A stretch of DNA of 16,603 nucleotides from an uncultured Candidatus Poseidoniales archaeon (GCA_964645485.1 CAZXZO010000034.1:1-16603), one strand, 5' to 3'. Counted from the stretch's first letter, positions 2,244 through 15,570 are shown. Notes: generated by a model not told the origin, from the letters alone. A program made the numbers and translations.

Positions 2244-3050
2244 GTGGCAAAGGCGAAGCCGTTGATACTCGCTATAGTAGGAGTCCTTCTACTGTCTTTT
2301 GTGGTTTACAATGTGGAAGTTGGATTATACTACTTCCAGTATCCTGACCAATTAGTTCACTACAAAATGGAAATCATTGAAATTATATCTGGTAATTGTG
2401 ATAGAAATACAATAAATGCAGATTTGGCGGACCATCAGAGCAATCAATGTCTATCCCCCTTAGGGACTTATTATGCAATTGATGTGATAATTGCAGCAAT
2501 AGGATTTGTCTTTTCAATTTCAGCACCGATTGCTGCATTGAAGCAATCTGGCAAATTAAAAGCTTCAAGAGGTTGGTCAAAAAACTTGGCTCGACTTCGC
2601 TTGGTATTCGGTATTAGTTTGGTGACAATTGCAGTTTCTGATGCGCTGGGGTTGCTAACAACAGAGGGACAACCTCTTGATTGGGCACTGGTTCTTGGGA
2701 TACCGATGCCTGCGTTCATAGTTGAAGTCTCACTCCTGATTTTGGGGGTCATGGTCATCAAAAAGGCTGTACGCACGCTCAAGTCAAAACCGAAATCAGA
2801 ATATGCCGAGCCTTGGCAAATGGCTGGTGCTGGTGGCTTCCGTGGTTCACTCGAAAAGAAAGATAAGAAATCCAAAAAAGGTGGAGTTATGACTGTTGGT
2901 GACCTTCGTTCTGCCTTGTCACTAGATCAGTATGAGGATATATTCCAACTTGGCACTAGTTCAGGTGAGGAAATGTCAGTTGGACGCATGTGTCATTACT
3001 GTAATGGCCAGGGCTGTACACAATGTGAATTCAAGGGAGAATTCGCGTAA
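2244..3050 (+). CDS. Hypothetical membrane protein (about 4 TM helices) with a Lys-rich cytoplasmic tail and a C-terminal CxxCxGxGCxxC zinc-knuckle motif
   Basis: 268 aa ORF (GTG start, TAA stop). Hydrophobic stretches: LILAIVGVLLLSFVVY, AIDVIIAAIGFVFSISAPIA, LVFGISLVTIAVSDALGLL, PAFIVEVSLLILGVMVI. Ends in CHYCNGQGCTQCEFKGEFA. Confidence 0.8.
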   Translation: MAKAKPLILAIVGVLLLSFVVYNVEVGLYYFQYPDQLVHYKMEIIEIISGNCDRNTINADLADHQSNQCLSPLGTYYAIDVIIAAIGFVFSISAPIAALKQSGKLKASRGWSKNLARLRLVFGISLVTIAVSDALGLLTTEGQPLDWALVLGIPMPAFIVEVSLLILGVMVIKKAVRTLKSKPKSEYAEPWQMAGAGGFRGSLEKKDKKSKKGGVMTVGDLRSALSLDQYEDIFQLGTSSGEEMSVGRMCHYCNGQGCTQCEFKGEFA

Positions 3051-3299: not shown

Positions 3300-6200
3300 A
3301 TGGGTAACTTGCATCTAAAAGCAATCGAAATGGAGAATTTTAAATCATTCAAAGGAGAGGTCGTAATACCGTTTGAAGTCGGTTTTACAGGGATAACTGG
3401 GCCGAATGGTTCTGGCAAGTCAAATTGTGGAGATGCACTACAGTTTGTGTTAGGGGCTAAGAGTTCGAAAAGCCTCCGCGCTGAAAATGTAGGTCAATTG
3501 ATATTCAATGGTGGTAACCACGGGAAAGCCGCAAAAAATTGCAAAGTCACACTAGTTTTTGATAATCCAAAAGATGCCTCCGGTACTCGAAGATTGAAGG
3601 TTGACACAGACGAGGTTCTACTCACAAGAACTGTCAGATTAGGTCGTAAAGGCAATTCAAACTCTGCTTATTACCTAAATGAAAGGCCCTCTACTGCAAC
3701 TGAATTCCGCCGTCTTTTGACAGGCGCAGGTGCTAGAGGAGACGGCTATAATATCGTCCTTCAAGGAGACGTCACTCACCTAGCAACAATGACTGACCGT
3801 GCTCGACGCAAGGTTTTGGAAGATGTTGCAGGTGTAACATCCTATGACGATGAAATTCGTAAGGCGAATCGCCAGCGTGACAAAGTCGAGCAGTATCTTG
3901 AGCAGATTACTCTGCTAGAGGATGAAATCAATAAGCGAATCAAAACGCTGGCGAAAGAACGCGAGCAGGCGATGAAATATCGCGAATTGCAGGAAACCCT
4001 GGAGACTGCTCGCCGGACTTTGATGCATTCTCGTCATCGAAGCCGAATAGAAGAAATTGAATTGGTAACCGATGAAAGAGGTAACTACATTGTTCGGCTG
4101 AGTGAAATCGGCGAGGAAATCGAAGCCGATAACAAGCAAGAATTGGCAATTGAAGACGAATTGGCAGAAATTCAGCGGCAATTGAATGAGGTGTTGGGCG
4201 ATGATGGTAAGAAATTGGGCGACCAACAACGCCGACTAGAAGTCGAAGTTGAAACCAGAAAAGACCGAATTTCAGGCTTGAAAGAGGACATTTCAGATGC
4301 AAGCGATGAGCAAGAAGTTCTGCAAGCAGAACAGACTGAAGCCGAACAAGCATTAGTATCTCATGAAGAATCTCTTGATTCAGCAAGAGAAACCCTCAAG
4401 AAAGCAGAAGAGGATCTTCGAGGAGCTGCAGAGGCAGAAGAAAACGCACGCTCCGCTCTTGATTCAGGTGACAAAGTTGTCCACGAACTCAATCGTGCAT
4501 TTGGGAAGGCAACTGAAGAAGTTGAAAAGACTCAAGAAGTTGCCAATAAAGCAATTCTAAAAGTTGGTGCTGAAAGCCAAAATGTAGAATTTTTGCACCA
4601 ACAACTCGCTGACCTTGAAACAGCCCTTGATGAGGCGAGGTTGAATCGTGACGATTTATTACTCCAAGGTGAAGAACTTGATTCCAATGCACCTGAACAA
4701 GACCGCACAAAATTGGCTCAAGAGTTGGCAAGAATCCAACGCCAAGAACGAGGCTTACTAGATGATGTACAGAGGTCAGAGGACCAATTACGTGATGCAG
4801 AAATGGCCTTGGTTAGGGCTCGAGGTGAACTAGAGACCCGAAGTGGCAGCACTACTGGTATGGCTCGCGCAGTGAAGTCTGTACTAAATCTCAGAGATTC
4901 TGGTGAGGTTAGAGGAATACTTGGCTCAATGTCTGAACTTTGTGCACCCAAAGATTCGCGCGATGAAGAAGCCCTTGCTTATGCGATGGGTGGAGGCATG
5001 AACAGTATCGTAGTCCGTGACGATGAAACCGCTGCACAGTGTATCTCATGGCTACGTAAGAACAAGGCAGGGAGAGCAACTTTCCTACCGTTGAACCGTT
5101 TGCAATCTCGTCGCCCTGGCGGGCGTTCCGTGATGGTTTCACGACAACCCGGTGTAGTAGGATTCGCTTCTGACTTGTTGGAATATGATAATTCAATTGA
5201 ACTTGCAGTCATCAATGTTGTACGAGACACTCTAATTGTCGAGTCAATGGATGTTGCTCGCCGCCACATGGGTGGAGTTAGAATGGTAACTAGGACCGGT
5301 TCAGTTGTCGAAGGAAGCGGTGCAATGGTTGGCGGCTCCTCAAGAGCAAACCGGCCCCAGTTTGGCGGCAAGATGGCAGGAAGTTCTGTGGTTGAGAAGG
5401 CCGAAGAAGATGTTGAACGCCTTAGCCTAGTCGCTGAAACTGGGCGAGCGGCATTGGCAGAATTACGCCAAAGCGAGCATCAACTCCGACAACGAATTAC
5501 CAATCTTGCTAATGATGACCACGCATTTGAAGCGAGGGCATGGAAAGAAGATTTAGCCCGTGCTGAAACATCATTCAAAGATTCAGAAAGCAAAGTAAAA
5601 GTTGCACTAAAGAATTTAGAACAAGCAACTGCAAAGCAGAATAAGGCTGAAAATGCGTCTGAATTAGCCAATAATGCTCATCAAGATGCAATCCAAGCAA
5701 AGACCGATGCTGCAACGGCTCTCCAAGAAGGCAGTCCACAGCATCTTTCCCGGCGTCTTCGAGATTCACAAGAGCAACGCAACGAAGCAGAGCGAGCAAA
5801 ACTCACTGCAAAGGGGACACTTTCAGGCGGCGAGAATCAATCAATTTTGTTGACCCGCCAAATCAAGGAACTACAACGTCGTATTGATGAGCAACAATCA
5901 ATCGTTGACAAGGCTACTAAGAAAATATCAGACGCTGAATCGGAAATTGAAACCTACCAAGAGGAACTTGATACCGTTAGTGAAGCCCATTCACAAATAA
6001 CCGAGGAGTACCGAGAGTTAGATGATAATAGGATTGCATTACGTGAAGAGCGCGTCAAACTAACTACACGCTTGGAACAAAAAGTCAGGGACCGTGATGC
6101 GATAAATAAGCGAATCACAGACCTCAACCTTCAGATTCACCAGAAGAAGGAAGCACTTCGTGAACTGGATGCAGAAATGGCTGAATTAGAAATCAAGCCA

Positions 6201-7358
6201 GCCTCTGATGATGCAGTTCTCCCAACTGTTCAAGAAGCCGAGGCAGCTGTTAGGAACCTTGAGCGCAGAGTTGGCAACCTAGGGGATGTCAACATGCGGG
6301 CAATTGAACAATATGACGAGGCACAGGAGCGCAGCGACAGTTTGAGCACAGACTCAAAGCGACTACGCGAGCACCGTCAAAGTTTGATTTCACTCGAAGA
6401 CCAACTTGAGACTGAGCGTAAAGACCGCTTGACAACCGTGATGGACATAGTCAATGTCAACTTCAGTAGAGTCTACCAACATCTTCAACCGGGTGGTAAA
6501 GGCGAATTACGCTTTGAAAACCCCAAGAAACCTTTCGAAGGCGGTCTTCAGATGTGGGCAAGTCCACCAGGAAAGAAGAGTGGATTGGGATTACTATCGG
6601 GCGGTGAGAAGTCCATGGCTGCACTAGCCCTGATTTTCGCAATCCAGGATTATGAACCATCTCCATTCTACTACTTTGATGAAGTTGATCAGAATCTTGA
6701 CACCTTCAACGCTGAAAACATCGCTTCATTGTGTAGATTACGCAGTGAGCAAGCACAATTCATCATGGTAACTCTTCGTAAGGTCAGCCTACAATTGGCT
6801 GACCATCATATTGGAATCACTCACGCAGGTGATGGATGCAGTAGAAGAATAACCGATTTCGGTCGTGAGCAAGCGATTGAAGTTGGAGATGCAGCACACC
6901 AAGAACTTGAGGCAATTAAGAATACTAAAGATGCAAAGAAAGCACTTGATGAGTTGCCAGCAGTCGAAGAAATGCCAAAGGCACCAGAAGAACTCGCTAC
7001 ACCAGCAAGTCTAGGTGGCTTGGATATTGAAGATTTATTAGCTGCCAATAAAGAATCAGAATTGAAAGCAGAGGCTGAAATTGCCGAACAAGATGATACT
7101 GCCTTGGAATCCGAGGATACCCCAACTCCTGAACTAGAACAGGCAGAAACACAGGACCTCGCTGAAGAAATCGAAGATGACGGCACACTTTCATCTCTTG
7201 CAGATAGGGCAGGAGATTTCAGAGAAGATATGGAAGAAAAACTCGGAGTCGCATTGCCAATTGAGCAGGAACAAAGAGATATTCTCGATGCAAGAGACAC
7301 CGAAGAAGAGGTCGACGACCTAGATATAGATGGCATCACAAAGGATGAAGGAGAGTGA
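3300..7358 (+). CDS. smc: Chromosome segregation ATPase Smc (condensin subunit) with an acidic C-terminal extension
   Basis: 1352 aa. N-terminal LKAIEMENFKSF, Walker A GPNGSGKSN, Q-loop IVLQGDV, long coiled coils, hinge (GRATFLPLNRL; GSVVEGSGAMVGG = GX6GX3GG), signature LSGGEKS, Walker B/D-loop YYFDEVDQNLD and archaeal-type QFIMVTLR. Start may be the TTG at 3309. Confidence 0.98.
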   Translation: MGNLHLKAIEMENFKSFKGEVVIPFEVGFTGITGPNGSGKSNCGDALQFVLGAKSSKSLRAENVGQLIFNGGNHGKAAKNCKVTLVFDNPKDASGTRRLKVDTDEVLLTRTVRLGRKGNSNSAYYLNERPSTATEFRRLLTGAGARGDGYNIVLQGDVTHLATMTDRARRKVLEDVAGVTSYDDEIRKANRQRDKVEQYLEQITLLEDEINKRIKTLAKEREQAMKYRELQETLETARRTLMHSRHRSRIEEIELVTDERGNYIVRLSEIGEEIEADNKQELAIEDELAEIQRQLNEVLGDDGKKLGDQQRRLEVEVETRKDRISGLKEDISDASDEQEVLQAEQTEAEQALVSHEESLDSARETLKKAEEDLRGAAEAEENARSALDSGDKVVHELNRAFGKATEEVEKTQEVANKAILKVGAESQNVEFLHQQLADLETALDEARLNRDDLLLQGEELDSNAPEQDRTKLAQELARIQRQERGLLDDVQRSEDQLRDAEMALVRARGELETRSGSTTGMARAVKSVLNLRDSGEVRGILGSMSELCAPKDSRDEEALAYAMGGGMNSIVVRDDETAAQCISWLRKNKAGRATFLPLNRLQSRRPGGRSVMVSRQPGVVGFASDLLEYDNSIELAVINVVRDTLIVESMDVARRHMGGVRMVTRTGSVVEGSGAMVGGSSRANRPQFGGKMAGSSVVEKAEEDVERLSLVAETGRAALAELRQSEHQLRQRITNLANDDHAFEARAWKEDLARAETSFKDSESKVKVALKNLEQATAKQNKAENASELANNAHQDAIQAKTDAATALQEGSPQHLSRRLRDSQEQRNEAERAKLTAKGTLSGGENQSILLTRQIKELQRRIDEQQSIVDKATKKISDAESEIETYQEELDTVSEAHSQITEEYRELDDNRIALREERVKLTTRLEQKVRDRDAINKRITDLNLQIHQKKEALRELDAEMAELEIKPASDDAVLPTVQEAEAAVRNLERRVGNLGDVNMRAIEQYDEAQERSDSLSTDSKRLREHRQSLISLEDQLETERKDRLTTVMDIVNVNFSRVYQHLQPGGKGELRFENPKKPFEGGLQMWASPPGKKSGLGLLSGGEKSMAALALIFAIQDYEPSPFYYFDEVDQNLDTFNAENIASLCRLRSEQAQFIMVTLRKVSLQLADHHIGITHAGDGCSRRITDFGREQAIEVGDAAHQELEAIKNTKDAKKALDELPAVEEMPKAPEELATPASLGGLDIEDLLAANKESELKAEAEIAEQDDTALESEDTPTPELEQAETQDLAEEIEDDGTLSSLADRAGDFREDMEEKLGVALPIEQEQRDILDARDTEEEVDDLDIDGITKDEGE

Positions 7359-8350
7359 CTCCAATGAGTGCTCTTGATTCAGAGACACTTAGAGACGACA
7401 TCATCGCTGAGATGATTGGCCATGACGAATCACTCCCCCTCAACAAAAGTAGGTATGCAGAGCATATTCAAGAGTTAGTTGAGATGGAAGAAGCCGAACA
7501 TAAGGCTCTCAGTCACCCATTTGACAGAAGTATTGCCCTGGTTTTACAGATGTTTCAGGATGCGACACTCGACCCATGGAATGTTGACCTAAACCGCTTT
7601 ATTGAATTGTTCAAAGAACGACTTAAGGGAGCCGAAAACATCGACTTACCGACTTGTGGAAGGCTAATCCGAATGGCTTGGCAAATCCTACATGGGCAAG
7701 CCGCAAACCTGTTGGAAAGGGCAGAGAATGCAGACCAAGATATTGATGATGATTGGGATTTCATTCCGAGTTGGCAGACCGAATACGATGATGACGATTT
7801 CCATTTCACTACTACCGTCTTGGCAGGTGAAGCAGCAGAAGAATTGCCTGGCCTGTTTGATGGGCGCATCAAGAGAGATGGTGGACGGCCAGTAACTCTC
7901 GCTGAATTACTATCTTGTCTTTCAGAAGCACACGACGATGCCGAAGAGCGCCGCTTGAGAGAGAGTGCCCGAGAGGAGCATGCACTGGAAGTAAAGAAGG
8001 CAATTGCCAATGTGAAGGGTCGAGTTCATCAAGAAAATTTGGAAGAAGAAATACGTGAAACTTGGCAATCAATCCGAGAGTTATCCCCAGAAGGAGAGCC
8101 TGTTACTGTTAAATCAGTCACTGAGAAACTGAAATCTAAGGGTATTGATGCAGGTTGGGACCCCGAAGATGCTGAAGCAGAAGGTGGAATAGTTGGTTTC
8201 GTATCAGCGCTTTTCCTAACTCACAGAGGTTATACAGACATTTGGCAAGTGGAATATCCAAATGGTGAAATTTTCCTACAAGATAAGTGGCCAGAATTGG
8301 GTACTTTTGACGCGATTACCGAACATCTTGCACCAGAGGTGGCAGCATGA
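7355..8350 (+). CDS. scpA: Kleisin ScpA (segregation and condensation protein A)
   Basis: 331 aa, GTGA overlap with the smc stop (alternative ATG at 7364). Archaeal ScpA motifs LDPWNVDL, CGRLIRMAWQIL..QA..LL, RPVTLAELLSCL and a C-terminal FVSALFL winged-helix segment. Confidence 0.92.
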   Translation: MTPMSALDSETLRDDIIAEMIGHDESLPLNKSRYAEHIQELVEMEEAEHKALSHPFDRSIALVLQMFQDATLDPWNVDLNRFIELFKERLKGAENIDLPTCGRLIRMAWQILHGQAANLLERAENADQDIDDDWDFIPSWQTEYDDDDFHFTTTVLAGEAAEELPGLFDGRIKRDGGRPVTLAELLSCLSEAHDDAEERRLRESAREEHALEVKKAIANVKGRVHQENLEEEIRETWQSIRELSPEGEPVTVKSVTEKLKSKGIDAGWDPEDAEAEGGIVGFVSALFLTHRGYTDIWQVEYPNGEIFLQDKWPELGTFDAITEHLAPEVAA

Positions 8351-9003
8351 GTGATGAAATAGAACTCACAACTTTGCTTGAAGCGACATTATTTGGTGCT
8401 GGCAGGTCAATACCTCAAGCAGAATTAGCCGAACAGTTCAAAATCACTGAATCAACTATTAGAATGGCACTTTTAGACTTACAAGAGTTGATCTCAAATA
8501 GGGAACAAACTGCTATTCAATTGACTGAAATAAATCGCTATTGGGTACTAGAAGTGAAACCTCATCTGGCTAATCATATTCCGCAGATTGCAAGGACAGA
8601 AATTCCGAAAAGATTGCTAAAAACTGCAGCACTGATAGCCTATCATCAACCAATGGCTCAGAATAAATTGGTAGAAATGGTTGGTCAAGTGACCTACGAG
8701 CATGTCTCTGATTTGAGGGAATTGGGCCTAATTGACAAACGTCGAGACGGAAATACACGTCGATTGAGCACCACCAGGAGATTTTCAGAGTACTTTGGTT
8801 GCCCCCACACATCTACAACAGAAGTTGCGCAGTGGTTCAAAGAACAGGCTGCTGGCTTAGGCTTGACGGGTTCACAACTTGCTGATGCTCTTTCAGGTGA
8901 AGAAGCAGGTGATGAAGAGGGAGAATCCACCACCTCAGGCACGGAAATGTCAATTGAAGTGCTTGAGAATGGCTCTTTGTCAGAAAATTCCGAAGAAGAA
9001 TGA
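8347..9003 (+). CDS. scpB: Kite subunit ScpB (segregation and condensation protein B)
   Basis: 218 aa, ATGA overlap with scpA. LLEATLFGAG, LKTAALIAYHQP, HVSDLRELGLI and STTRRFSEYFG are characteristic tandem winged-helix ScpB motifs. Confidence 0.95.
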   Translation: MSDEIELTTLLEATLFGAGRSIPQAELAEQFKITESTIRMALLDLQELISNREQTAIQLTEINRYWVLEVKPHLANHIPQIARTEIPKRLLKTAALIAYHQPMAQNKLVEMVGQVTYEHVSDLRELGLIDKRRDGNTRRLSTTRRFSEYFGCPHTSTTEVAQWFKEQAAGLGLTGSQLADALSGEEAGDEEGESTTSGTEMSIEVLENGSLSENSEEE

Positions 9004-9331: not shown

Positions 9332-10627
9332 TCAGCTATTGCGGACATGTTCAAGGGCCGCTTCAATTGCAGCAGCAGTTATTCTGCCAGATGCACGAGC
9401 GATTTCAACAACTTTGTCGACTTCGTCATCATTAGCACCAGCCGTGACTGCCATATTTCTAGCGTGTAACTTCATGTGTCCCGCTTGGATACCAACTGTG
9501 GCTAGTGCTCTAAGGGCTCCTAAATTTTGAGCAATACCGGCCGCAGCAATCACTTTGGCTAATTCGTCAGCAGTTCTTGCCCCCATTATTGCAACATTTG
9601 CCTTCGCAGTAGGGTGTACTCTAACTGCTCCACCAACTAATCCAACTGCCATTGGTAATTCAATCGAACCTACGAGGTTTCCATCAGCATCCTTCTCCCA
9701 GTGAGTGAGGGAGCCATAAATTCGCTCATGTGAAGCGTAGGAATGGGCTCCTGACTCGATTGCACGCCAATCCTGGCCGCATGCAACAGCAATAGCAGAA
9801 ATAGCGTTCATGATGCCTTTATTGTGGGTTGTAGCCCTAAATGGGTCAGCAGCAGCAAAATGGTAGGCCTGTAGTATACCATCAATGACTTTTCCCCCTT
9901 GTTCAGCAGTTTCTCCCGAATTTGCCATTTCTGATGGAGTAAATGTAGCACTTACCCTTGCTAATCGATGAACTGCTAGGTTCGAAATAATCCTCAAAAT
10001 CACTGTTCCGCCGGTTATTCTCTCAACAGTTGGGGCGATAGTTTCCGCCATGGTATTGACTGCATTTGCCCCCATTGCATCGCGGCAATCGACTAAGATA
10101 TGAATGATAACCATTGGTCCTGAATCGGTATCAATTACCCTTGCTTCAAGGCCTTTACAACCGCCTCCAAATTTGACTAAAATAGGGTCAACTTCGTTGC
10201 ATGCTGAGACTAATTCATCAGTAGCAGAAAGGACGGCTTCTTTGGCTGCAAATGGGTCATCACACCCGACCACTTGAATCTGGCCTATCATGATGGGTTC
10301 GGTGTTATCAGAGACGAAACCGCCACTGGCATGGCAGCGTTTTGCCATGTTGCTTGCAGCGGCTACAACAGATGGTTCTTCTAAGGCAAATGGTACTAGA
10401 TAATGCTCGCCATCAACGATGAAATTTGTTGCTACTCCAACCGGCAAGGCAAGGGTCCCAACTACGTTCTCGATAATACGATCTGCAGCAGCCTCAGAAA
10501 GCTCTCCTGTAGCAGCCAAAGCATCTACTGCTTCTTGGTCCAATCCTGCTAATTCAGCAATCATTTCTCGGCGCTCTTTTACACTTAATTTGTAGAATCC
10601 TTTCAGGCGGCTATTATCAACAGGCAT
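9332..10627 (-). CDS. hmgA: Hydroxymethylglutaryl-CoA reductase, class II (bacterial/MvaA type)
   Basis: 431 aa. SRLKGFYKLSV N-terminus, dimerisation motif ENVVG, EEPSVVAAAS, DAMGAN, HNKGIMN and GIQAGHMKLHARN (catalytic His), which are class II signatures. Confidence 0.97.
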   Translation of the reverse strand: MPVDNSRLKGFYKLSVKERREMIAELAGLDQEAVDALAATGELSEAAADRIIENVVGTLALPVGVATNFIVDGEHYLVPFALEEPSVVAAASNMAKRCHASGGFVSDNTEPIMIGQIQVVGCDDPFAAKEAVLSATDELVSACNEVDPILVKFGGGCKGLEARVIDTDSGPMVIIHILVDCRDAMGANAVNTMAETIAPTVERITGGTVILRIISNLAVHRLARVSATFTPSEMANSGETAEQGGKVIDGILQAYHFAAADPFRATTHNKGIMNAISAIAVACGQDWRAIESGAHSYASHERIYGSLTHWEKDADGNLVGSIELPMAVGLVGGAVRVHPTAKANVAIMGARTADELAKVIAAAGIAQNLGALRALATVGIQAGHMKLHARNMAVTAGANDDEVDKVVEIARASGRITAAAIEAALEHVRNS

Positions 10628-10765
10628 TGACTTCCCTCAACCTTGATGCCCGAGTCGGACTCCCTAAAGCATTGCGAGGATTTCCAAAACATTTGGATTA
10701 CTAGTTGAGGTGTGGTTCACGATATGATTCTCTATTGCGGATAGCAATGATTCCTACTACATCCA

Positions 10766-10838
10766 ATGCGTTAACGAAGCGTTAATTTATTGTGAATAAC
10801 GGGTTAACGCTTATTCTGATGCGTTATTAACGCGTTAA
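10766..10838. repeat. Phased direct and inverted repeat array built on GCGTTA/TAACGC
   Basis: Two 20-mers, ATGCGTTAACGAAGCGTTAA (10766-10785) and ATGCGTTATTAACGCGTTAA (10819-10838), are 16/20 identical and 53 bp apart. Each holds two GCGTTA copies 11 bp apart. Inverted copies TAACGC occur at 10805 and 10828. Confidence 0.85.
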
Positions 10839-10839
10839 A

Positions 10840-10883
10840 CCGGCAAAACAATTCCATTTTCAAGGGTCATTTTCCCGGCAAAA
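10840..10883 (+). repeat. Second short direct-repeat set (CCGGCAAAA x2, CATTTTC x2)
   Basis: CCGGCAAAA at 10840-10848 and 10875-10883. CATTTTC at 10855-10861 and 10868-10874. Confidence 0.6.
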
Positions 10884-10949
10884 GGCAACTCCGTGACTTG
10901 TTCAACGCTTCTGAACGCATCATTTTTACAACTTAAAATGCGTAAATAT

Positions 10950-10955
10950 GTTAAG
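10950..10955 (+). promoter_or_regulatory. Possible TATA-like box for the AAA-wHTH gene
   Basis: GTTAAG in AAATATGTTAAG lies about 24-29 nt upstream of the ATG at 10979, which supports that ATG over the GTG at 10955. Confidence 0.3.
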
Positions 10956-10978
10956 TGGACTTCAAGTTCGCTCCTATC

Positions 10979-12937
10979 ATGCAATCAACAGCGCTAGAGA
11001 TGTTGAATCTCCCTGCCATTAGGTCAAATCCTTTTGACACTAGACCCCTAAGTCGAGAACAGTTGGAGTTGATGGTTGGTAGAGATGAAGTGTTCACCGC
11101 TTTAGCCAACAATATCCGGTTAGTCTCACCACGGGTTGTGGCAGTGGTAGGAGAGAAAGGTTCTGGGCGCTCATCATTAGTTCAATCAGTTGCTTCAACT
11201 GCAGACCAAATCCACACCGTATTTTGGCCTTCAGGAGACCATGTTACCACCATTCTGCATCAGATATATTGCGACTTGATGAAGGACTTCGAAACCCCGC
11301 CTGTACATAGTGTGATGATTGACCGATTGGAGGAAGAATTAGCAGGCCGAACTGGGCTTCTTCCTGTCATCATTTTTGACCATTCATTATTGCCTGGTCC
11401 GGTGCTTGCAGAAGTGCTATCTCAACTGATGCCGGTATTGACTAAAATCCGTGCTTTAACCATCATTACTCTCACTCCTGGCCAGAAATCAGGCTTCCCA
11501 GAAGAACTACTTTCAGAGATGGATATTACCCCTTCTCTAGAATCTCTTACAAGAGCCGAAATGGCCTCCCTCATTGGTAAGCGGGTGCATAAGGCGAGCC
11601 GCTCATCTTGGACCGCTCCTGACGCCCTTCTTGATATGGTGATGAAAGAAAGCAGTGGACATGTTGGCAGGGCAATGAGATATCTCCGAGATGTTGTAGA
11701 TCAATCACGCGGAATGCCACTAGTTAATGGGCGTAAATTGGATTTGAAGGTTGATATCACATCAAAACCACCGACTGTAGTGGAAGATTCTACTTTTCAG
11801 CGAGTTGCTGAAGCCGCCCCTCCAATTACAGAAGTAGAAGTCAAAGTTTCAGAATCTTCTGAATTTGATTCTCAATCAGAGGAAATCCCATTTTCTGTTG
11901 TAGATGAAGAGACCTCAACAATGGCAGAACCATCAACTGAAGAGCAAATTGAAGCCCCCACAAAAGCGCCAGAATTAGATGAAAGTCAGACTTTATTCCC
12001 TTCATTATCAGATGCTGCAGACATGTGGAAGAATTCTGGCGAAGATAATGGGCCACAATTAGATTCAACCGAAGAAACAGATGTTGAAGAACAAACAATC
12101 GAATCGGAATCAGAATCTGGTGAACCTCCGCTAGAGCCTGAGGAAAATCAGCAGTGGAAGAATGAATTTAGCGATGAAATGGGTGGTGCTGAGATATTGG
12201 AGATGGCTGAAGGCACCGCACCATCATTTGGAGGAGGGCGATTTGGCGGCCTACGGTCCCGAAATAGAGCAGCAAAAATTGACACACGTGCTGAAAATAG
12301 GGGCGCACCTAGGAAAACCCAAGGCCCCAGAGAAGCAAAGCCAAACGAGGAGGAATCCGACCCTAACAGAGGTCGCAGAATCAATACTAATGACCAAAAC
12401 ACAGAACTTTGGATTCAAGATGGTACCGACTCACCGATTAAAAATGCGCCAAAAGTCAAGCCACAACAGATGCAACCGAGTATAGATAGTACTCCAAACC
12501 AAGAACCAAAACCCCAGTCCCCGGCACAGTTTGAAGAGACAATCGAGTGGGAAGAAGAACCTCAATTCGAGGATGAAGAATTGACCGGTGAACAACCCCA
12601 AGCAACACCAGAAGAAGTACTCAGTGCACTCAGTTCTATTCGCAGAGTTGCGCCTCCCCGTAAACCAGATATTGTGTTAGATATCAATGCATTAACTAAT
12701 CTCAATGATGCTGAAACGTTGATTTTGACTCAAGCAGTAGAACGTGAAGTATCTCCTTCGGACAATCTACTTCAGGATGAATTAGGAGTTGGGCGTCCTC
12801 GGCTTTCACAAATCTTCAATGGATTACTGAAATCGGGTATTCTCACAGTTCGAAAACAGGGGCGTAGTCGCATGTTTAGGATAAGTGCACCAGCCAAAGA
12901 CCACCTAGTCAATCTAGGTGCTGGAGGCGAATTCTGA
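10979..12937 (+). CDS. Uncharacterised protein: N-terminal AAA-type P-loop domain with degenerate Walker motifs, long acidic low-complexity linker, C-terminal winged helix-turn-helix
   Basis: The ORF track gives 10955-12937 (GTG); the ATG at 10979 is preferred. NPF...MVGRDE, Walker A-like GEKGSGRSS (11150-11176) and Walker B-like VIIFDH (D at 11378). About 310 aa of E/S/P/Q-rich linker, then LNDAETLIL..LQDELGVGRPRLSQIFNGLLKSGILTVRKQGRSRMFRI, a MarR/ArsR-like wHTH. Confidence 0.8.
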   Translation: MQSTALEMLNLPAIRSNPFDTRPLSREQLELMVGRDEVFTALANNIRLVSPRVVAVVGEKGSGRSSLVQSVASTADQIHTVFWPSGDHVTTILHQIYCDLMKDFETPPVHSVMIDRLEEELAGRTGLLPVIIFDHSLLPGPVLAEVLSQLMPVLTKIRALTIITLTPGQKSGFPEELLSEMDITPSLESLTRAEMASLIGKRVHKASRSSWTAPDALLDMVMKESSGHVGRAMRYLRDVVDQSRGMPLVNGRKLDLKVDITSKPPTVVEDSTFQRVAEAAPPITEVEVKVSESSEFDSQSEEIPFSVVDEETSTMAEPSTEEQIEAPTKAPELDESQTLFPSLSDAADMWKNSGEDNGPQLDSTEETDVEEQTIESESESGEPPLEPEENQQWKNEFSDEMGGAEILEMAEGTAPSFGGGRFGGLRSRNRAAKIDTRAENRGAPRKTQGPREAKPNEEESDPNRGRRINTNDQNTELWIQDGTDSPIKNAPKVKPQQMQPSIDSTPNQEPKPQSPAQFEETIEWEEEPQFEDEELTGEQPQATPEEVLSALSSIRRVAPPRKPDIVLDINALTNLNDAETLILTQAVEREVSPSDNLLQDELGVGRPRLSQIFNGLLKSGILTVRKQGRSRMFRISAPAKDHLVNLGAGGEF

Positions 12938-13962
12938 TGGCTGGTGATTGGCGCGTTTCTTGGAGTCACCAACTTGAAGGAAAAGTTGGCACTATCGAAA
13001 CTCTAAACGATGGAGTAGTTATTGCAACTGGCGGAATTGTAAGATTACTCAACGATTTAGGGGATTTCATTTGGAAGCGTACTTTTCAATTTGATGTCTA
13101 CAGATTAGTATCTGATGGAACCAGTGTCGCAGTTCTTTCAGGTCCCGGATTTCATCTATTAGATATCAGAACGGGAAACCCGCTTGGTGAAGGCCGTTCG
13201 GTTGGAGGCGGTTTCCGAGATTGTTTGCCAAGACCAGGTGGAGGTTGGTTGTTAGCTGACCGAGGCGACCATATTCACATGTTCAATCGAGATGGCAGAG
13301 GAATTAGCCGACTTCGACCGGGTCGAATCAGGAAATTAATCGGCTGGCTTGATAGAGAACATCTAATCGCCATAAATGACGATGGGCATCTCATTTGTTT
13401 ACGCCTATTTGGTGAAAACTCTCAGAGAATTATTGAGGATAGGCGTTGGTCTTGGGCTAGTCGCTTAACAAATGGGAAATTACTAGTCCAGTCAGTGGAT
13501 GGTGCTATCCACGAGGGAGTTCCAAATCCATTTGGTTGGGATTCACTTGAACAGTTGATAGATACAGGGGTGGATCCACTTGAAGCAGCAATGACTGGTG
13601 ATGGCTGGTGGATGCTTACTATGAATGGTGTTCTTGACAGAATACCGCCTACTGAAGGTGAATCGTGGCCCGCAGGAGTTCATATTTCATCCAACAACTC
13701 TGATATCATTACAACAGCAACAAGAGATGGATTAATTCGTTGGTGGGAATCACCAAAACTAATCTCAAAACGTGATTTATTTCTCAGAAAATTGGTTACC
13801 GAAGAGCGTCAAAGAGTTGATTGGGAGCAGCGCCAAGTTATCTTTGAAGCAGCAAGAGATGCCGAAGAAAATGGTCTGTTAACCCGAGCGATTGAGTTGT
13901 ACAATACTCTAGGTAGGCATGAGGACGTGCGACGCATCTTAGCCATCAAGGAGGCCGGTTGA
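12937..13962 (+). CDS. Beta-propeller (PQQ/WD40-like) protein with a C-terminal helical, TPR-like segment
   Basis: 341 aa, TGATG overlap with the upstream gene. Recurrent short strands with Trp/Gly (SWSHQLEG, GDFIWKRTF, LLDIRTGNPL) and a WD-like repeat IITTATRDGLIRWWES (13705-13752). Helical end FEAARDAEENGLLTRAIELYNTLGRHEDVRRI. Confidence 0.7.
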   Translation: MAGDWRVSWSHQLEGKVGTIETLNDGVVIATGGIVRLLNDLGDFIWKRTFQFDVYRLVSDGTSVAVLSGPGFHLLDIRTGNPLGEGRSVGGGFRDCLPRPGGGWLLADRGDHIHMFNRDGRGISRLRPGRIRKLIGWLDREHLIAINDDGHLICLRLFGENSQRIIEDRRWSWASRLTNGKLLVQSVDGAIHEGVPNPFGWDSLEQLIDTGVDPLEAAMTGDGWWMLTMNGVLDRIPPTEGESWPAGVHISSNNSDIITTATRDGLIRWWESPKLISKRDLFLRKLVTEERQRVDWEQRQVIFEAARDAEENGLLTRAIELYNTLGRHEDVRRILAIKEAG

Positions 13963-14255
13963 TGAACTCACAAGTAACTCAAGAATTAGTTGAGAAATAC
14001 CTTGATTTGACTTCACGAGCCAAAGCAAAGGCGACGCCGATACATGGTGAAGACACTGCTGAGGCTAAACAATTGAGTGATATGATGGGGATGTGCGATG
14101 ATTACGCATCAGACGCGCGTCATTTCATGGGAGTTGGTGATTTAGTGCGGGCGTTCGGGGCGATAAATTATGCTCACGCTTGGCTTGATGCTGCTGTTCG
14201 AATTGGATTATTAGATGGGCATGGGGATGACCAATTGTTCACCCTTCCCAAGTGA
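13962..14255 (+). CDS. DUF357 family protein (conserved small archaeal helical protein)
   Basis: YASDARHFMGVGDLVRAFGAINYAHAWLDAAVRIG matches the DUF357 pattern YxxDAxxFxxxGDxxxAxxxxxYAHxWLDA. ATG at 13962 overlaps the upstream TGA, with GGAGG at 13950-13954. Confidence 0.88.
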   Translation: MNSQVTQELVEKYLDLTSRAKAKATPIHGEDTAEAKQLSDMMGMCDDYASDARHFMGVGDLVRAFGAINYAHAWLDAAVRIGLLDGHGDDQLFTLPK

Positions 14256-14283
14256 GGTTAGTGTCAGCAAACTGAGAATGTTG

Positions 14284-14308
14284 ATTTTGGTTAGGTAATG
14301 ACCAAAAT
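14284..14308. repeat. Inverted repeat between DUF357 and cdc6 (terminator or protein-binding site)
   Basis: ATTTTGGT-N9-ACCAAAAT, a perfect 8-bp inverted repeat. Confidence 0.55.
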
Positions 14309-14364
14309 TGCTAAGAACGTTGGAAGTTGGAAGCAAACGGTTCACTAACCGGGTTGTAGGTTGA

Positions 14365-15570
14365 ATGGTCAGCGAGACATTGGGAGGCAAGCGTGTGGCG
14401 GGATATTTAGACAGAATTGGAGCGGGCAAGATTCTCATCAATGCCGAGCCGCTGTCATACGATTATGTGCCAGAAGAATTAGTTGGCAGGGATGAGCAAT
14501 TACAGCAAATGGCTGGCATCTTTCAACAAATTAATGACCACAGAATTTCTTGTCGTGTAGCAATTACCGGAAATGTAGGGTGTGGTAAGACAGCACTTTC
14601 ACATGTGTTTTCAAGGGATTTACAGAGGCACCTTGGTGAGGAAAGGGCACTCAAGTTGGTTCATGTCAATTGTCGAAATTTCCCATCAAAATCACAGGTT
14701 TTGCAGCGTATTGTCACACATCTTGACTCTAGGCATCCAGAGCGCGGCTTTGGTAGCGGTGAGGTTTTACAATCGATACGCAAGCAATTACAAGGCAGAA
14801 ATGAACACTTGTTATTGATTTTAGATGAAGTTGACCATCTACTGAGAGCTGACAAGGGAGACCTTCTCTATCAACTTCTAAGAATTGATGAAGGTCGTGA
14901 GATTAAAGGCACAATTTCACTAATAATCATCAGTCAAGAGCAAGTACTTGACCAGTTAGAAGGGGCCGTATTATCGCGCTTTGGTCAAAGTAATCACATT
15001 AGGCTTGAATCGTATCAAGAAACGGCATTAACTGCAATCGCTACACAGCGTGCAGCATTATCATGTCATGAGGGTTCTATTCCTGATGGCGTATTACGTA
15101 CAATAGGGCAACGTTCTGCAGAAACTGGTGATGCTAGAGTTGCCATCGAATTATTGGAAGATTCAATCAAGAAGGCTGAACGAGCAGGCCGAGATGAGGT
15201 AATTGCTGATGATGTGCGATTTTTGGCAAAAGAAATCGGCCGTACAGTGGAGCCGAGCATTGTTGTTGACCTAAACAAACATGCTCAGATGATTTTGCTA
15301 GCACTTTGCCGCAGACTTCGCAAGGAGTCTGAGGTGACAACAGGTGATGCAGAAAAATTGTATCGTGTGGTCTGTGAAGAATATGAAGAAGAACCACGTA
15401 GCCATACTACTTTCTGGAAGCACCTCAAGCGTTTAGAAGACTTAGAATTGATTGAGTCGCATATATCTAGCCGCTCCGAAGGACGCGGCCGCACACAACA
15501 TATCTCAATGCCGGCGGCACTACCTGGAGCAGTTGAGAAACGGCTTGAGAGTGCCCTAAAGGGCAAATGA
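14365..15570 (+). CDS. cdc6: Orc1/Cdc6 family replication initiation protein
   Basis: 401 aa. LSYDYVPEELVGRDEQ, Walker A GNVGCGKT, VHVNC, Walker B LLILDEVDHL, TGDARVAIELL and the C-terminal wHTH VTTGDAEKLYRVVCE..EPRSHTTFWKHLKRLEDLELI...GRGRT. Confidence 0.96.
   Translation: MVSETLGGKRVAGYLDRIGAGKILINAEPLSYDYVPEELVGRDEQLQQMAGIFQQINDHRISCRVAITGNVGCGKTALSHVFSRDLQRHLGEERALKLVHVNCRNFPSKSQVLQRIVTHLDSRHPERGFGSGEVLQSIRKQLQGRNEHLLLILDEVDHLLRADKGDLLYQLLRIDEGREIKGTISLIIISQEQVLDQLEGAVLSRFGQSNHIRLESYQETALTAIATQRAALSCHEGSIPDGVLRTIGQRSAETGDARVAIELLEDSIKKAERAGRDEVIADDVRFLAKEIGRTVEPSIVVDLNKHAQMILLALCRRLRKESEVTTGDAEKLYRVVCEEYEEEPRSHTTFWKHLKRLEDLELIESHISSRSEGRGRTQHISMPAALPGAVEKRLESALKGK

What the first reader, a model, noticed from the sequence alone, without database searches (positions are those of the whole stretch)
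10766..15570. Candidate undescribed chromosome module: repeat array + pseudo-ATPase/wHTH + beta-propeller + DUF357 + Orc1/Cdc6, next to smc-scpAB
Seen: the array is followed by three genes chained by TGATG overlaps (12935-12939 and 13960-13964), then co-oriented cdc6 109 nt later. smc-scpAB ends about 1.8 kb upstream of the array. Established: archaeal origins usually lie near orc1/cdc6; extra wHTH initiators (e.g. WhiP) and palindromic centromere-like sites upstream of their binding proteins (e.g. Sulfolobus SegAB) exist; and bacterial Smc is loaded near the origin by a site-specific DNA-binding protein. Inference: this could be a lineage-specific origin, partition or SMC-loading system in which the wHTH reads the GCGTTA array and the long acidic linker and propeller recruit partners. 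I cannot assign the two uncharacterised genes to any system I know.
Basis: inference. Interest (0 to 1): 0.75.

Follow-up and report, generated by a model that had tools for sequence, protein, structure and literature searches.

The report
Orc-like DNA-binder operon with repeat array
Marine Group II archaea (Poseidoniales) all carry an undescribed operon for a replication-initiator-like DNA-binding protein with a worn-out ATPase, placed behind a repeat array found nowhere else in the genome, but nothing here shows that it is a replication origin or works with the neighbouring cdc6 or smc genes.

Summary
All six GCGTTA/TAACGC hexamers of the window lie in 10768-10837. This is the only such cluster in the 1.94-Mb genome. 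Both TGATG overlaps, the 109-nt gap to cdc6 and the gene identities are confirmed.

The core unit is [TTAACGC array]-AAA+/wHTH-(propeller)-DUF357. The AAA+/wHTH gene is in 62 of 63 sampled Poseidoniales genomes and was not found in sister orders or the rest of the phylum. The array always lies upstream of it.

The ATPase domain is closest in fold to archaeal Orc1/Cdc6 (Z 15), but its catalytic residues are degenerate and its winged helix is ArsR-like.

The wider "chromosome module" idea is not supported:
- The window's cdc6 is the ancient second Orc1/Cdc6 paralog, flipped or displaced in many lineages.
- DUF357 is a pan-archaeal housekeeping gene.
- The propeller is lost in streamlined genera.
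- The array region has no AT-rich unwinding element.
- An AT-rich, origin-like region lies next to the other orc1 gene.
- Skew in two closed genomes shows no turning point at the array.

Most likely the protein assembles on its own upstream array as a single-locus regulatory switch; its cellular role is unknown. This scan found the same operon in at least eight other genomes.

The parts
10766..10838 (.). Distal array: six perfect GCGTTA/TAACGC half-sites plus degenerate copies, including the palindromes GCGTTAtTAACGC and TTAACGCGTTAA. Direct copies are spaced 11, 42 and 11 bp.
   Evidence: Unique in the genome. Conserved in the same intergenic region in all relatives examined, with 3-7 perfect hexamers each, except G099 where no perfect cluster was seen. 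Extended consensus aTTAACGCnTT.
10904..10918 (+). Proximal pair of half-site-like boxes, AACGC-N5-AACGC, between the distal array and the promoter of the AAA+/wHTH gene.
   Evidence: Sequence. An equivalent pair, (T)AACGC-N4-5-(T)AACG, sits at the same relative place in families f1 and f3.
10940..10954 (+). Conserved GCGTAAATATGTTAA element, a probable TATA-like promoter box for the operon. Its position argues that ATG 10979, not GTG 10955, is the real start (inference).
   Evidence: Conserved across f1 loci; f3 has an (A/G)ATATAC box at the equivalent place. No transcript data.
10955..12937 (+). AAA+/wHTH protein, 660 aa from GTG 10955 or 652 aa from ATG 10979. It has an Orc1/Cdc6-like initiator-clade AAA+ module with degenerate Walker A (K to R), Walker B (D only) and sensor 2. 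A roughly 310-aa acidic disordered linker (pI 4.2) carries the conserved motif FGGLRxRN. The C-terminus is an ArsR-type winged helix.
   Evidence: Present in 41 of 41 and 62 of 63 Poseidoniales genomes; not found outside the order.
12937..13962 (+). Seven-bladed WD40-like beta-propeller (residues 1-271) with a long helix and a two-helix tail. Translationally coupled to the upstream gene by TGATG.
   Evidence: Restricted to the order: f3 42/42, f1 8/21, lost in small-genome genera.
13959..14255 (+). DUF357 protein (probable start ATG 13962), coupled by TGATG. A near-universal single-copy archaeal gene of unknown function.
   Evidence: Found in 107 of 121 genomes of the phylum and in 4 reference archaea. 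[quoted passage not shown]
14365..15570 (+). Neighbour, not shown to be part of the unit: Orc1/Cdc6 of the second (Orc1-2-type) paralog clade, with intact Walker A, Walker B and GDAR motifs.
   Evidence: Orientation and distance to the operon vary among lineages.
9332..10627 (-). Divergent neighbour: class II (NAD-type) HMG-CoA reductase. Its promoter shares the intergenic region with the array.
   Evidence: The divergent arrangement is conserved order-wide. In the sister order hmgr has other neighbours and no hexamer cluster.
3300..9003 (+). Neighbours: smc (3300-7358), scpA by position (7355-8350) and scpB (8347-9003). Synteny with the operon is order-wide, but no functional link was found.

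Best explanation
The real unit is a Poseidoniales-specific, vertically inherited operon: [array of TTAACGC half-sites]-AAA+/wHTH-(beta-propeller)-DUF357.

Gene 1 descends from the initiator (Orc1/Cdc6-like) branch of AAA+ proteins. It has lost the residues needed for ATP hydrolysis, and it carries an ArsR-type winged helix on a roughly 300-aa acidic disordered tether.

Most likely (inferred, not shown), winged-helix dimers read the palindromic and helically phased TTAACGC half-sites 100-190 bp upstream of the protein's own start. The nucleotide-binding but hydrolysis-poor AAA+ modules would then oligomerise. The resulting single-locus nucleoprotein complex would set transcription of its own operon, and possibly of the divergent HMG-CoA reductase gene.

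The propeller is an accessory partner. DUF357 is a housekeeping gene that happens to be co-transcribed.

The adjacency to cdc6 and to smc-scpAB is conserved synteny, not a shared machine, and the array is not the chromosome's replication origin.
For: Shown:
- Array unique in the genome and conserved with the gene across three families and at least 18 genera, at protein identities down to 23-30%.
- Array and gene co-occur. Neither was found in the sister order, whose hmgr has no such boxes.
- Distance from array to gene start is constant while distance to hmgr varies from 43 to 189 nt.
- The recognition-helix region RxRLSQ, the SPSD motif and the TTAACGC core are all invariant.
- Overlapping stop/start codons between the genes recur order-wide.
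- AAA+ fold: best wide-search neighbours are S. solfataricus Orc1/Cdc6 2qby_B (Z 15.3), A. pernix ORC2 (15.1) and Drosophila Cdc6 (15.0), tied within 1 Z with MuB (14.7). hhalign to the neighbouring Cdc6 family gives 96.4% over 209 columns, base plus lid.
- Two helices lie between beta2 and beta3, as in the initiator-specific motif.
- Walker A is K to R in 14 of 16 sequences. Walker B keeps only D. The sensor-2 Arg is not conserved.
- wHTH matches ArsR/BigR.

Against an origin:
- Array intergenic region is 233-397 bp and 60% AT against 54.5% for the window.
- AT-rich (67-73%) 460-bp region upstream of orc1-1 on another contig.
- No skew turning point at the array in G026 or G209.

Precedent: an Orc1/Cdc6 paralog acting as a transcription regulator, Orc1-2 of Sulfolobales (PMC6061795, PMC9738581).
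Against: - No binding, transcript or expression data exist. That the wHTH binds the array rests on co-occurrence alone.
- The distal array lies about 100 nt or more from both TATA-like boxes. That is far for an archaeal repressor and unproven for an activator.
- Six to eight phased half-sites, an initiator-type AAA+ module and a 300-aa conserved-motif linker are more elaborate than a simple autoregulator needs.
- A regulator with only one target locus gives no hint of the physiological output.
- The nearest sequence relatives outside the family, compact AAA_22/ATPase_2 + wHTH proteins, are themselves uncharacterised.
Confidence: 0.5

Rival explanations
1. The array plus the Orc-like protein is a second or conditional replication origin (a replicator-initiator pair). 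It might use the neighbouring Orc1-2-type Cdc6, as at captured-element origins in Sulfolobus and haloarchaea.
For: - Initiator-clade AAA+ fold with an ISM-like helix pair.
- The gene lies immediately next to a unique, phased repeat array.
- A Cdc6 gene stays within 0.1-7 kb across the order.
- In G026 the locus lies 1.13 Mb from orc1-1 on a 2.06-Mb chromosome, roughly antipodal.
Against: - No AT-rich unwinding element. The intergenic region is as short as 191-260 bp and also holds two promoters.
- ATPase motifs are degenerate.
- The wHTH is not of the Cdc6 type (hhalign probability 0.6%).
- The cdc6 block is inverted in f3, with only about 35 nt upstream of it.
- In G209 and G201 the locus is only about 95 kb from orc1-1, so the antipodal position is not conserved.
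- Gene-strand-corrected AT skew in G026 (p<0.0002) and G209 (p=0.016) fits one origin-like and one terminus-like turning point, with the array on a monotonic arm. A two-origin model predicts the wrong signs.
- Elements conserved upstream of orc1-1 are absent here.
- No viral relatives that would suggest a captured element.
Confidence: 0.12
2. The array is a centromere-like or SMC-loading landmark. The Orc-like protein would nucleate on it and, through its acidic linker and the propeller, recruit Smc-ScpAB or a segregation machine.
For: - Single site per chromosome.
- smc-scpA-scpB lies 1.8 kb upstream in every Poseidoniales genome examined.
- A conserved short motif, FGGLRxRN, in the disordered linker suggests a recruited partner.
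Against: - The adjacency cannot be separated from general order-wide synteny; the flanking oxidoreductase gene is equally conserved.
- Sister orders have Smc-ScpAB, but this protein was not found in them.
- No ParA/SegA-type ATPase in the operon.
- The site's position relative to orc1-1 and to the skew turning points is not conserved.
- The linker motif is kept in genomes that lost the propeller.
Confidence: 0.08
3. The array is the operator of a different factor, for example a regulator of HMG-CoA reductase or the neighbouring Cdc6. The AAA+/wHTH protein would bind elsewhere or not bind sequence-specifically.
For: - The array lies between two divergent promoters, and hmgr is always the partner gene.
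- Binding by the wHTH has not been demonstrated.
Against: - The array is absent upstream of hmgr where the AAA+/wHTH gene is absent.
- Its distance is fixed relative to the AAA+/wHTH gene, not to hmgr.
- The Cdc6 paralog clade exists in other Thermoplasmatota without this context: no S6e, aIF2gamma or DUF357 homolog lay within 1.5 kb of its gene there.
Confidence: 0.15

Closest known systems
Archaeal Orc1/Cdc6 initiators (TIGR02928; PDB 2qby, 1w5s, 1fnn), including the non-initiator Orc1-2 DNA-damage regulator of Sulfolobales
   Same: - AAA+ base plus lid with an ISM-like helix pair, and an N-terminal PL...LVGRDE lead-in.
- A C-terminal winged helix.
- Top structural neighbours (Z 15.0-15.3) and hhalign probability 96.4% to the Cdc6 family.
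- Orc1-2 shows that such a protein can work as a transcription factor on short boxes (PMC6061795).
   Different: - No hit to TIGR02928 or Cdc6_C.
- Walker A Lys, Walker B Glu and sensor-2 Arg are not conserved.
- The wHTH is ArsR-like.
- A roughly 300-aa acidic disordered insert separates lid and wHTH.
- Single target locus rather than origins or a regulon.
Compact archaeal AAA_22/AAA_16/ATPase_2 (ExeA-like) ATPases with a C-terminal MarR/TrmB/HTH_24 winged helix (350-400 aa, uncharacterised)
   Same: Nearest sequence relatives outside the family in a 1.84-billion-protein search (E 1e-11 to 1e-16 over the whole AAA+ module). Same order of domains.
STAND/AAA_16 + HTH transcription activators of bacteria (MalT, LAL family)
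   Same: N-terminal AAA_16-like NTPase, C-terminal HTH, and oligomerisation-dependent binding to arrays of boxes upstream of a promoter. MalT appears among the structural neighbours (8bob, Z 12.6).
   Different: No sensor or TPR arm, no LuxR-type HTH, AAA_16 score below the Pfam cut-off (29.8 against 32.6 bits), and an archaeal lineage-specific family.
Site-specific wHTH centromere binders upstream of their own genes (Sulfolobus pNOB8 AspA; SegB of SegAB)
   Same: A winged-helix protein and palindromic sites placed just upstream of its own operon, with a single locus per replicon. The comparison rests on recalled knowledge and was not tested here.
   Different: No ParA/SegA motor or ParB-like adaptor in the operon. 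The binder is fused to an Orc-like AAA+ module. Position on the chromosome is not conserved relative to orc1-1.

Membership tests
Orc1/Cdc6 (TIGR02928 / PF09079 Cdc6_C) | Family HMM scored above its curated cut-off | tested here: not met
   The AAA+/wHTH protein has no TIGR02928, Cdc6_C or Cdc6_lid hit. The neighbouring true Cdc6 scores 252.7 bits.
Orc1/Cdc6 (TIGR02928 / PF09079 Cdc6_C) | Initiator-clade AAA+ fold with the initiator-specific helical insert between beta2 and beta3 | tested here: met
   AF2 model pLDDT 92.7 with helices 82-95 and 104-116 between beta2 and beta3. Top wide-search neighbours are 2qby_B, 1w5s and 7jgr_G at Z 15.0-15.3. MuB and TnsC, which share the clade, are tied within about 1 Z.
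Orc1/Cdc6 (TIGR02928 / PF09079 Cdc6_C) | Intact Walker A GKT/S, Walker B DE and sensor-2 GDAR | tested here: not met
   Walker A is GSGR(T/S) in 14 of 16 sequences and K in 2. Walker B keeps only D142. The GHPG motif replaces GDAR, with a variable Arg.
Orc1/Cdc6 (TIGR02928 / PF09079 Cdc6_C) | Cdc6-type C-terminal winged helix | tested here: not met
   hhalign of the wHTH alignment against the Cdc6 family gives probability 0.6%. The best solved relatives are ArsR/BigR.
Archaeal oriC | AT-rich duplex-unwinding element flanked by origin recognition boxes, next to an initiator gene | tested here: not met
   The array intergenic region is 59.6% AT against 54.5% for the window, and only 191-397 bp. 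No G-string or dyad boxes like those upstream of orc1-1. The orc1-1 upstream region is 67-73% AT.
Archaeal oriC | Nucleotide-skew turning point at the site | tested here: not met
   G026: turning points at about 0.08 Mb (plateau 1.96-0.3) and 1.2 Mb, with the array at 0.695 Mb. G209: about 0.36-0.40 and 0.96-1.16 Mb, with the array at 0.615 Mb. Sampling covered half of each genome and skew is weak, so this counts only moderately.
ArsR/SmtB winged-helix regulators | Family HMM above cut-off | tested here: inconclusive
   NF033788 scores 20.5 bits against a 55-bit cut-off. The profile against the PDB gives BigR at E 8e-6 and other ArsR proteins at E 4.5e-5 to 6e-4.
ArsR/SmtB winged-helix regulators | Palindromic operator at its own promoter | tested here: inconclusive
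   Perfect 12- and 13-bp palindromes lie upstream of its own gene, but 100 nt or more from the TATA-like box. Binding was not tested.
STAND / AAA_16 + HTH activators (MalT/LAL) | AAA_16/NACHT-type NTPase above cut-off, plus a sensor (TPR) arm and a LuxR HTH | tested here: not met
   AAA_16 scores 29.8 bits against 32.6. No TPR arm and no LuxR HTH.
ParABS / SegAB-type partition systems | Walker-type ParA/SegA ATPase encoded with the site-binding protein | tested here: not met
   Pfam and NCBIfam scans of all neighbouring genes show none.
DUF357 (PF04010) | Family HMM above cut-off | tested here: met
   67.9 bits against a 29.4-bit cut-off.
WD40-like beta-propeller | Seven-bladed propeller fold | tested here: met
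   AF2 pLDDT 91.4. Foldseek matches WDR5, WDR26 and BamB at E about 1e-12 and TM 0.6-0.65. No Pfam WD40 hit.

The most novel reading that the evidence does not exclude
The hydrolysis-poor Orc-like protein and its phased TTAACGC array could form a permanent, single-copy chromosomal landmark in Poseidoniales. This might be a conditional or dormant second origin, or a loading or anchoring site for chromosome-organising factors. The conserved linker motif and the propeller would then recruit partners. That would make it a repurposed initiator acting in chromosome biology rather than in transcription.
Probability: 0.15. Interest if true: 0.85.

Novelty: new variant of a known kind. Interest (0 to 1): 0.55.

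Why it matters
Poseidoniales are among the most abundant planktonic archaea, and none has been cultured.

A single-copy gene found in nearly every sampled genome of the order encodes an initiator-derived, probably hydrolysis-dead AAA+ protein tethered to a winged helix. Its cis-array is unique in the genome and strictly conserved. Together they give a sharply defined protein-DNA pair that could be tested in vitro without a culture.

The system may show how an Orc1/Cdc6-like module is recycled as a DNA-bound switch. It also gives a first handle on DUF357, a universal archaeal gene with no known function.

For the scan, the result also narrows the claim. The cdc6 and smc neighbours should not be read as parts of one machine, and the likely primary origin lies elsewhere.

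Tried and rejected
- **Origin at the array.** Looked for an AT-rich unwinding element, ORB-like boxes and skew turning points; none found. A two-origin model for G026 predicts skew signs opposite to those observed.
- **Antipodal placement to orc1-1.** True in G026 (1.13 of 2.06 Mb) but not in G209 or G201, where the gap is about 95 kb.
- **Co-acquisition of cdc6 and the AAA+/wHTH gene on a captured element.** The tree puts the window's Cdc6 with the second paralog of other Thermoplasmatota, so it is ancestral and was lost in the sister orders. Neither protein has viral relatives.
- **DUF357 as a module-specific part.** It is near-universal in archaea and has other neighbours elsewhere.
- **A regulon.** No other intergenic box pair or cluster exists in the genome.
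- **Charge complementarity between propeller and acidic linker.** Not seen; the propeller has pI 5.9.
- **RNA element in the intergenic region.** No Rfam hit anywhere in the window.
- **Pattern search for TTAACGC-N(0-12)-GCGTTAA in closed genomes.** Uninformative. The overlapping palindrome does not fit the pattern, and part of the G026 array reads N.
- **Raw GC skew in G026.** Not significant on its own (p=0.21).
- **Complex prediction with Cdc6, Smc or ScpA.** No tool for multimers was available.


Full report
**What is in the window**

The window is one whole contig (C34) of a 1.94-Mb, 82%-complete genome. Names attached to near-identical proteins place it in Candidatus Poseidoniales, family Thalassarchaeaceae (Marine Group II).

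The gene order is as follows:

| Coordinates | Strand | Gene |
|---|---|---|
| 462-2135 | - | FAD-dependent oxidoreductase |
| 2244-3050 | + | Unknown |
| 3300-7358 | + | smc |
| 7355-8350 | + | scpA (by position only) |
| 8347-9003 | + | scpB |
| 9332-10627 | - | Class II HMG-CoA reductase (hmgr) |
| 10628-10954 | . | 327-nt intergenic region |
| 10955-12937 | + | AAA+/wHTH protein |
| 12937-13962 | + | Beta-propeller protein |
| 13959-14255 | + | DUF357 |
| 14365-15570 | + | Orc1/Cdc6 |
| from 15571 | + | S6e, then aIF2-gamma |

**The observation**

- All six GCGTTA/TAACGC hexamers of the window fall within 10768-10837. They make nested palindromes.
- Across the genome the hexamer is rare (0.17 per kb). 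This is the only cluster, the only intergenic pair, and the only occurrence of TTAACGCGTTAA.

**Conservation**

- A homolog of the AAA+/wHTH protein is present in 41 of 41 relatives, covering 3 families and 10 genera.
- In a phylum-wide sample it is in 62 of 63 Poseidoniales genomes. It is in 0 of 8 genomes of the sister family, and in the rest of the phylum only weak partial AAA+ matches appear.
- In a library of 1.84 billion proteins the family forms an isolated group of about 67 representatives (E ≤ 1e-30). A clear gap follows.
- Across 25 loci from distinct genomes the order x557-(x268)-smc-scpA-scpB-hmgr(-)-AAA+/wHTH-(propeller)-DUF357 does not change.
- The operon genes overlap by a few bases order-wide.
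- The propeller is order-specific but dispensable: f3 42/42, f1 8/21. In the small-genome genera the AAA+/wHTH gene is followed directly by DUF357.
- The cdc6-S6e-aIF2gamma block is co-oriented only in part of f1 and in f2. It is inverted and 1-4 kb away in f3 and several f1 genera, and cdc6 alone is flipped in one genome.

**The array is a conserved cis-element tied to the AAA+/wHTH gene**

- Nearly every relative has 3-7 perfect hexamers in the same intergenic region, often including TTAACGCGTTAA. One genome (G099) shows only degenerate copies.
- A proximal pair, (T)AACGC-N4-5-(T)AACG, and a TATA-like box follow the array.
- The half-site consensus is aTTAACGCnTT.
- The array sits 100-210 nt upstream of the AAA+/wHTH start in all lineages. 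Its distance to the hmgr start varies from 43 to 189 nt.
- In the sister order hmgr has other neighbours and no box cluster.
- Array and gene therefore co-occur. The wHTH residues SPSD and RxRLSQ and the DNA core are both invariant.
- That the wHTH binds the array is a well-supported inference, not a demonstrated fact.

**What the proteins are**

*AAA+/wHTH, N-domain.* The model is confident (pLDDT 92.7).
- A Foldseek search of the PDB ranks TnsC, MuB, RuvBL, NLR, RFC, DnaA and ORC highest.
- A Foldseek-independent search of 48,161 chains puts archaeal Orc1/Cdc6 first: 2qby_B Z 15.3, 1w5s 15.1, Drosophila Cdc6 15.0. MuB (14.7) and TnsC (14.0) are effectively tied.
- Profile-profile comparison with the neighbouring Cdc6 family gives 96.4% probability over 209 columns, base plus lid.
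- Two helices between beta2 and beta3 correspond to the initiator-specific motif.
- The catalytic set is degenerate. Walker A Lys is Arg in 14 of 16 sequences. Walker B keeps only Asp. The GDAR sensor-2 motif is replaced by GHPG with a variable Arg.

*AAA+/wHTH, C-domain and linker.*
- The C-terminal domain is ArsR-like and not Cdc6-like.
- Between the two domains lies a variable acidic linker, pI 4.2. It carries a conserved motif, FGGLRxRN, that is retained even where the propeller is lost.
- The nearest relatives outside the family are compact, uncharacterised AAA_22/ATPase_2 + wHTH proteins of 350-400 aa, one of them from an Asgard genome.

*Gene 2* is a seven-bladed WD40-like propeller with a helical tail.

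*DUF357* is a near-universal archaeal single-copy gene (PMC12680538).

**Testing the "chromosome module / origin" reading**

- *Two Orc1/Cdc6 genes.* Each Poseidoniales genome examined for this family has two.
  - The one on contig C3 is a clear Orc1-1 (299 bits to S. solfataricus Cdc6-1).
  - The window's copy scores lower and matches Pyrobaculum Cdc6 best.
  - In a tree it groups with the second copy of other Thermoplasmatota. Sister orders keep only the Orc1-1 type.
  - Raymann et al. (PMC3914693) describe these as ancient paralogs. They note that the Orc1-2 gene does not coincide with mapped origins in H. volcanii or S. solfataricus.
  - In Sulfolobales Orc1-2 is a transcription regulator (PMC6061795).
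- *AT content.*
  - The region upstream of orc1-1 is a 460-bp intergenic stretch of 67-73% AT with an inverted repeat. It is also AT-enriched in G026.
  - No comparable stretch lies at the array or beside the window's cdc6. In f3 that cdc6 has only about 35 nt upstream.
  - Elements conserved upstream of orc1-1 are absent here.
- *Relative position.* The locus and orc1-1 are 1.13 Mb apart in the closed 2.06-Mb genome G026. They are only about 95 kb apart in G209 and G201.
- *Skew.* I sampled half of two closed genomes in 20-kb blocks and removed the gene-strand effect.
  - G026: residual AT skew gives a clean V (permutation p<0.0002), with turning points near 0.08 Mb (plateau 1.96-0.3 Mb) and 1.2 Mb. 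Residual GC skew agrees on 1.2 Mb (p=0.04). The array at 0.695 Mb lies on a monotonic arm, and a two-origin model predicts the wrong signs.
  - G209: turning points are near 0.36-0.40 Mb and 0.96-1.16 Mb (AT p=0.016; GC not significant). The array is at 0.615 Mb.
  - This is moderate evidence against an active main origin at the array. It does not place the origin exactly at orc1-1 either.
- *smc-scpAB.* The adjacency cannot be told apart from general synteny. In sister orders these genes are on separate contigs and the AAA+/wHTH gene was not found.

**Verdict**

- The array, the coupling and the gene identities are real. The array-wHTH pairing is strongly suggested.
- The best-supported mechanism is a single-locus nucleoprotein switch. 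An initiator-derived, hydrolysis-poor AAA+ protein would assemble through its tethered winged helix on phased TTAACGC half-sites upstream of its own operon. It would control that operon and perhaps hmgr.
- The origin, partition and SMC-loading readings remain possible, but every test available here failed to support them.
- The family is undescribed. Literature searches found nothing on it.
- The same operon has already been reported by this scan from at least eight other genomes, with the same conclusions. I read those notes only after reaching mine.

**Limits**

- There are no expression, binding or coverage data.
- Part of the G026 array reads N.

Noticed in passing
L149:3-1755, L132:2-1755, L148:2-1758 (other Thermoplasmatota): Outside Poseidoniales, DUF357 lies directly downstream of a HerA-like ATPase (DUF87/HAS-barrel) in 13 of 30 loci, often overlapping it. 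In 3 loci it follows a DUF4443/PH0730-like wHTH protein. That HerA-like ATPase was not found in any of 30 Poseidoniales genomes or in G000. DUF357 may have swapped its ATPase partner in this order.
   Followed up: partly
G000 contig C3:92865-93326 (locus L115:1366-1827): The 460-bp region upstream of the Orc1-1-type gene is 67-73% AT. It holds a 15-nt inverted repeat, GCGACAAAATAACTA / TAGTTATTTTTTCGC. This is the best candidate for the primary origin. Family f3 genomes have a conserved G-string element, GGGGGACTCGGACTCA, at the equivalent place.
   Followed up: partly
G026 (closed, 2.06 Mb) and G209 (closed, 1.60 Mb): Gene-strand-corrected skew gives one origin-like and one terminus-like turning point in each genome. 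Neither Orc1/Cdc6 gene sits exactly at the origin-like point: orc1-1 is about 130-300 kb away.
   Followed up: partly
window 12242-12265 (residues 430-437 of the 660-aa reading): The short motif FGGLRxRN, preceded by a conserved Pro, is invariant or nearly so inside the otherwise variable acidic linker. It is kept in lineages without the propeller. It is a likely docking motif for an unknown partner.
   Followed up: no
window 14281-14310: The DUF357-cdc6 spacer holds a hairpin-capable inverted repeat, TTTTGGT-N9-ACCAAAA, after a short T run. This may be a terminator separating cdc6 from the operon.
   Followed up: no
window 7355-8350: The gene between smc and scpB, presumably the kleisin ScpA, has no Pfam or NCBIfam hit, although it overlaps both neighbours and is conserved order-wide.
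   Followed up: no
L027, L032 (genus g10): Two lineages keep a canonical Lys in Walker A (GSGKTS) where all others have Arg. The K to R change is therefore not universal in the family.
   Followed up: no
window 3300-7358: Smc is 1352 aa long, and the SMC_N Pfam match ends at residue 1181. The extension is shorter or absent in the tblastn matches from f3, which end near residue 1241.
   Followed up: no
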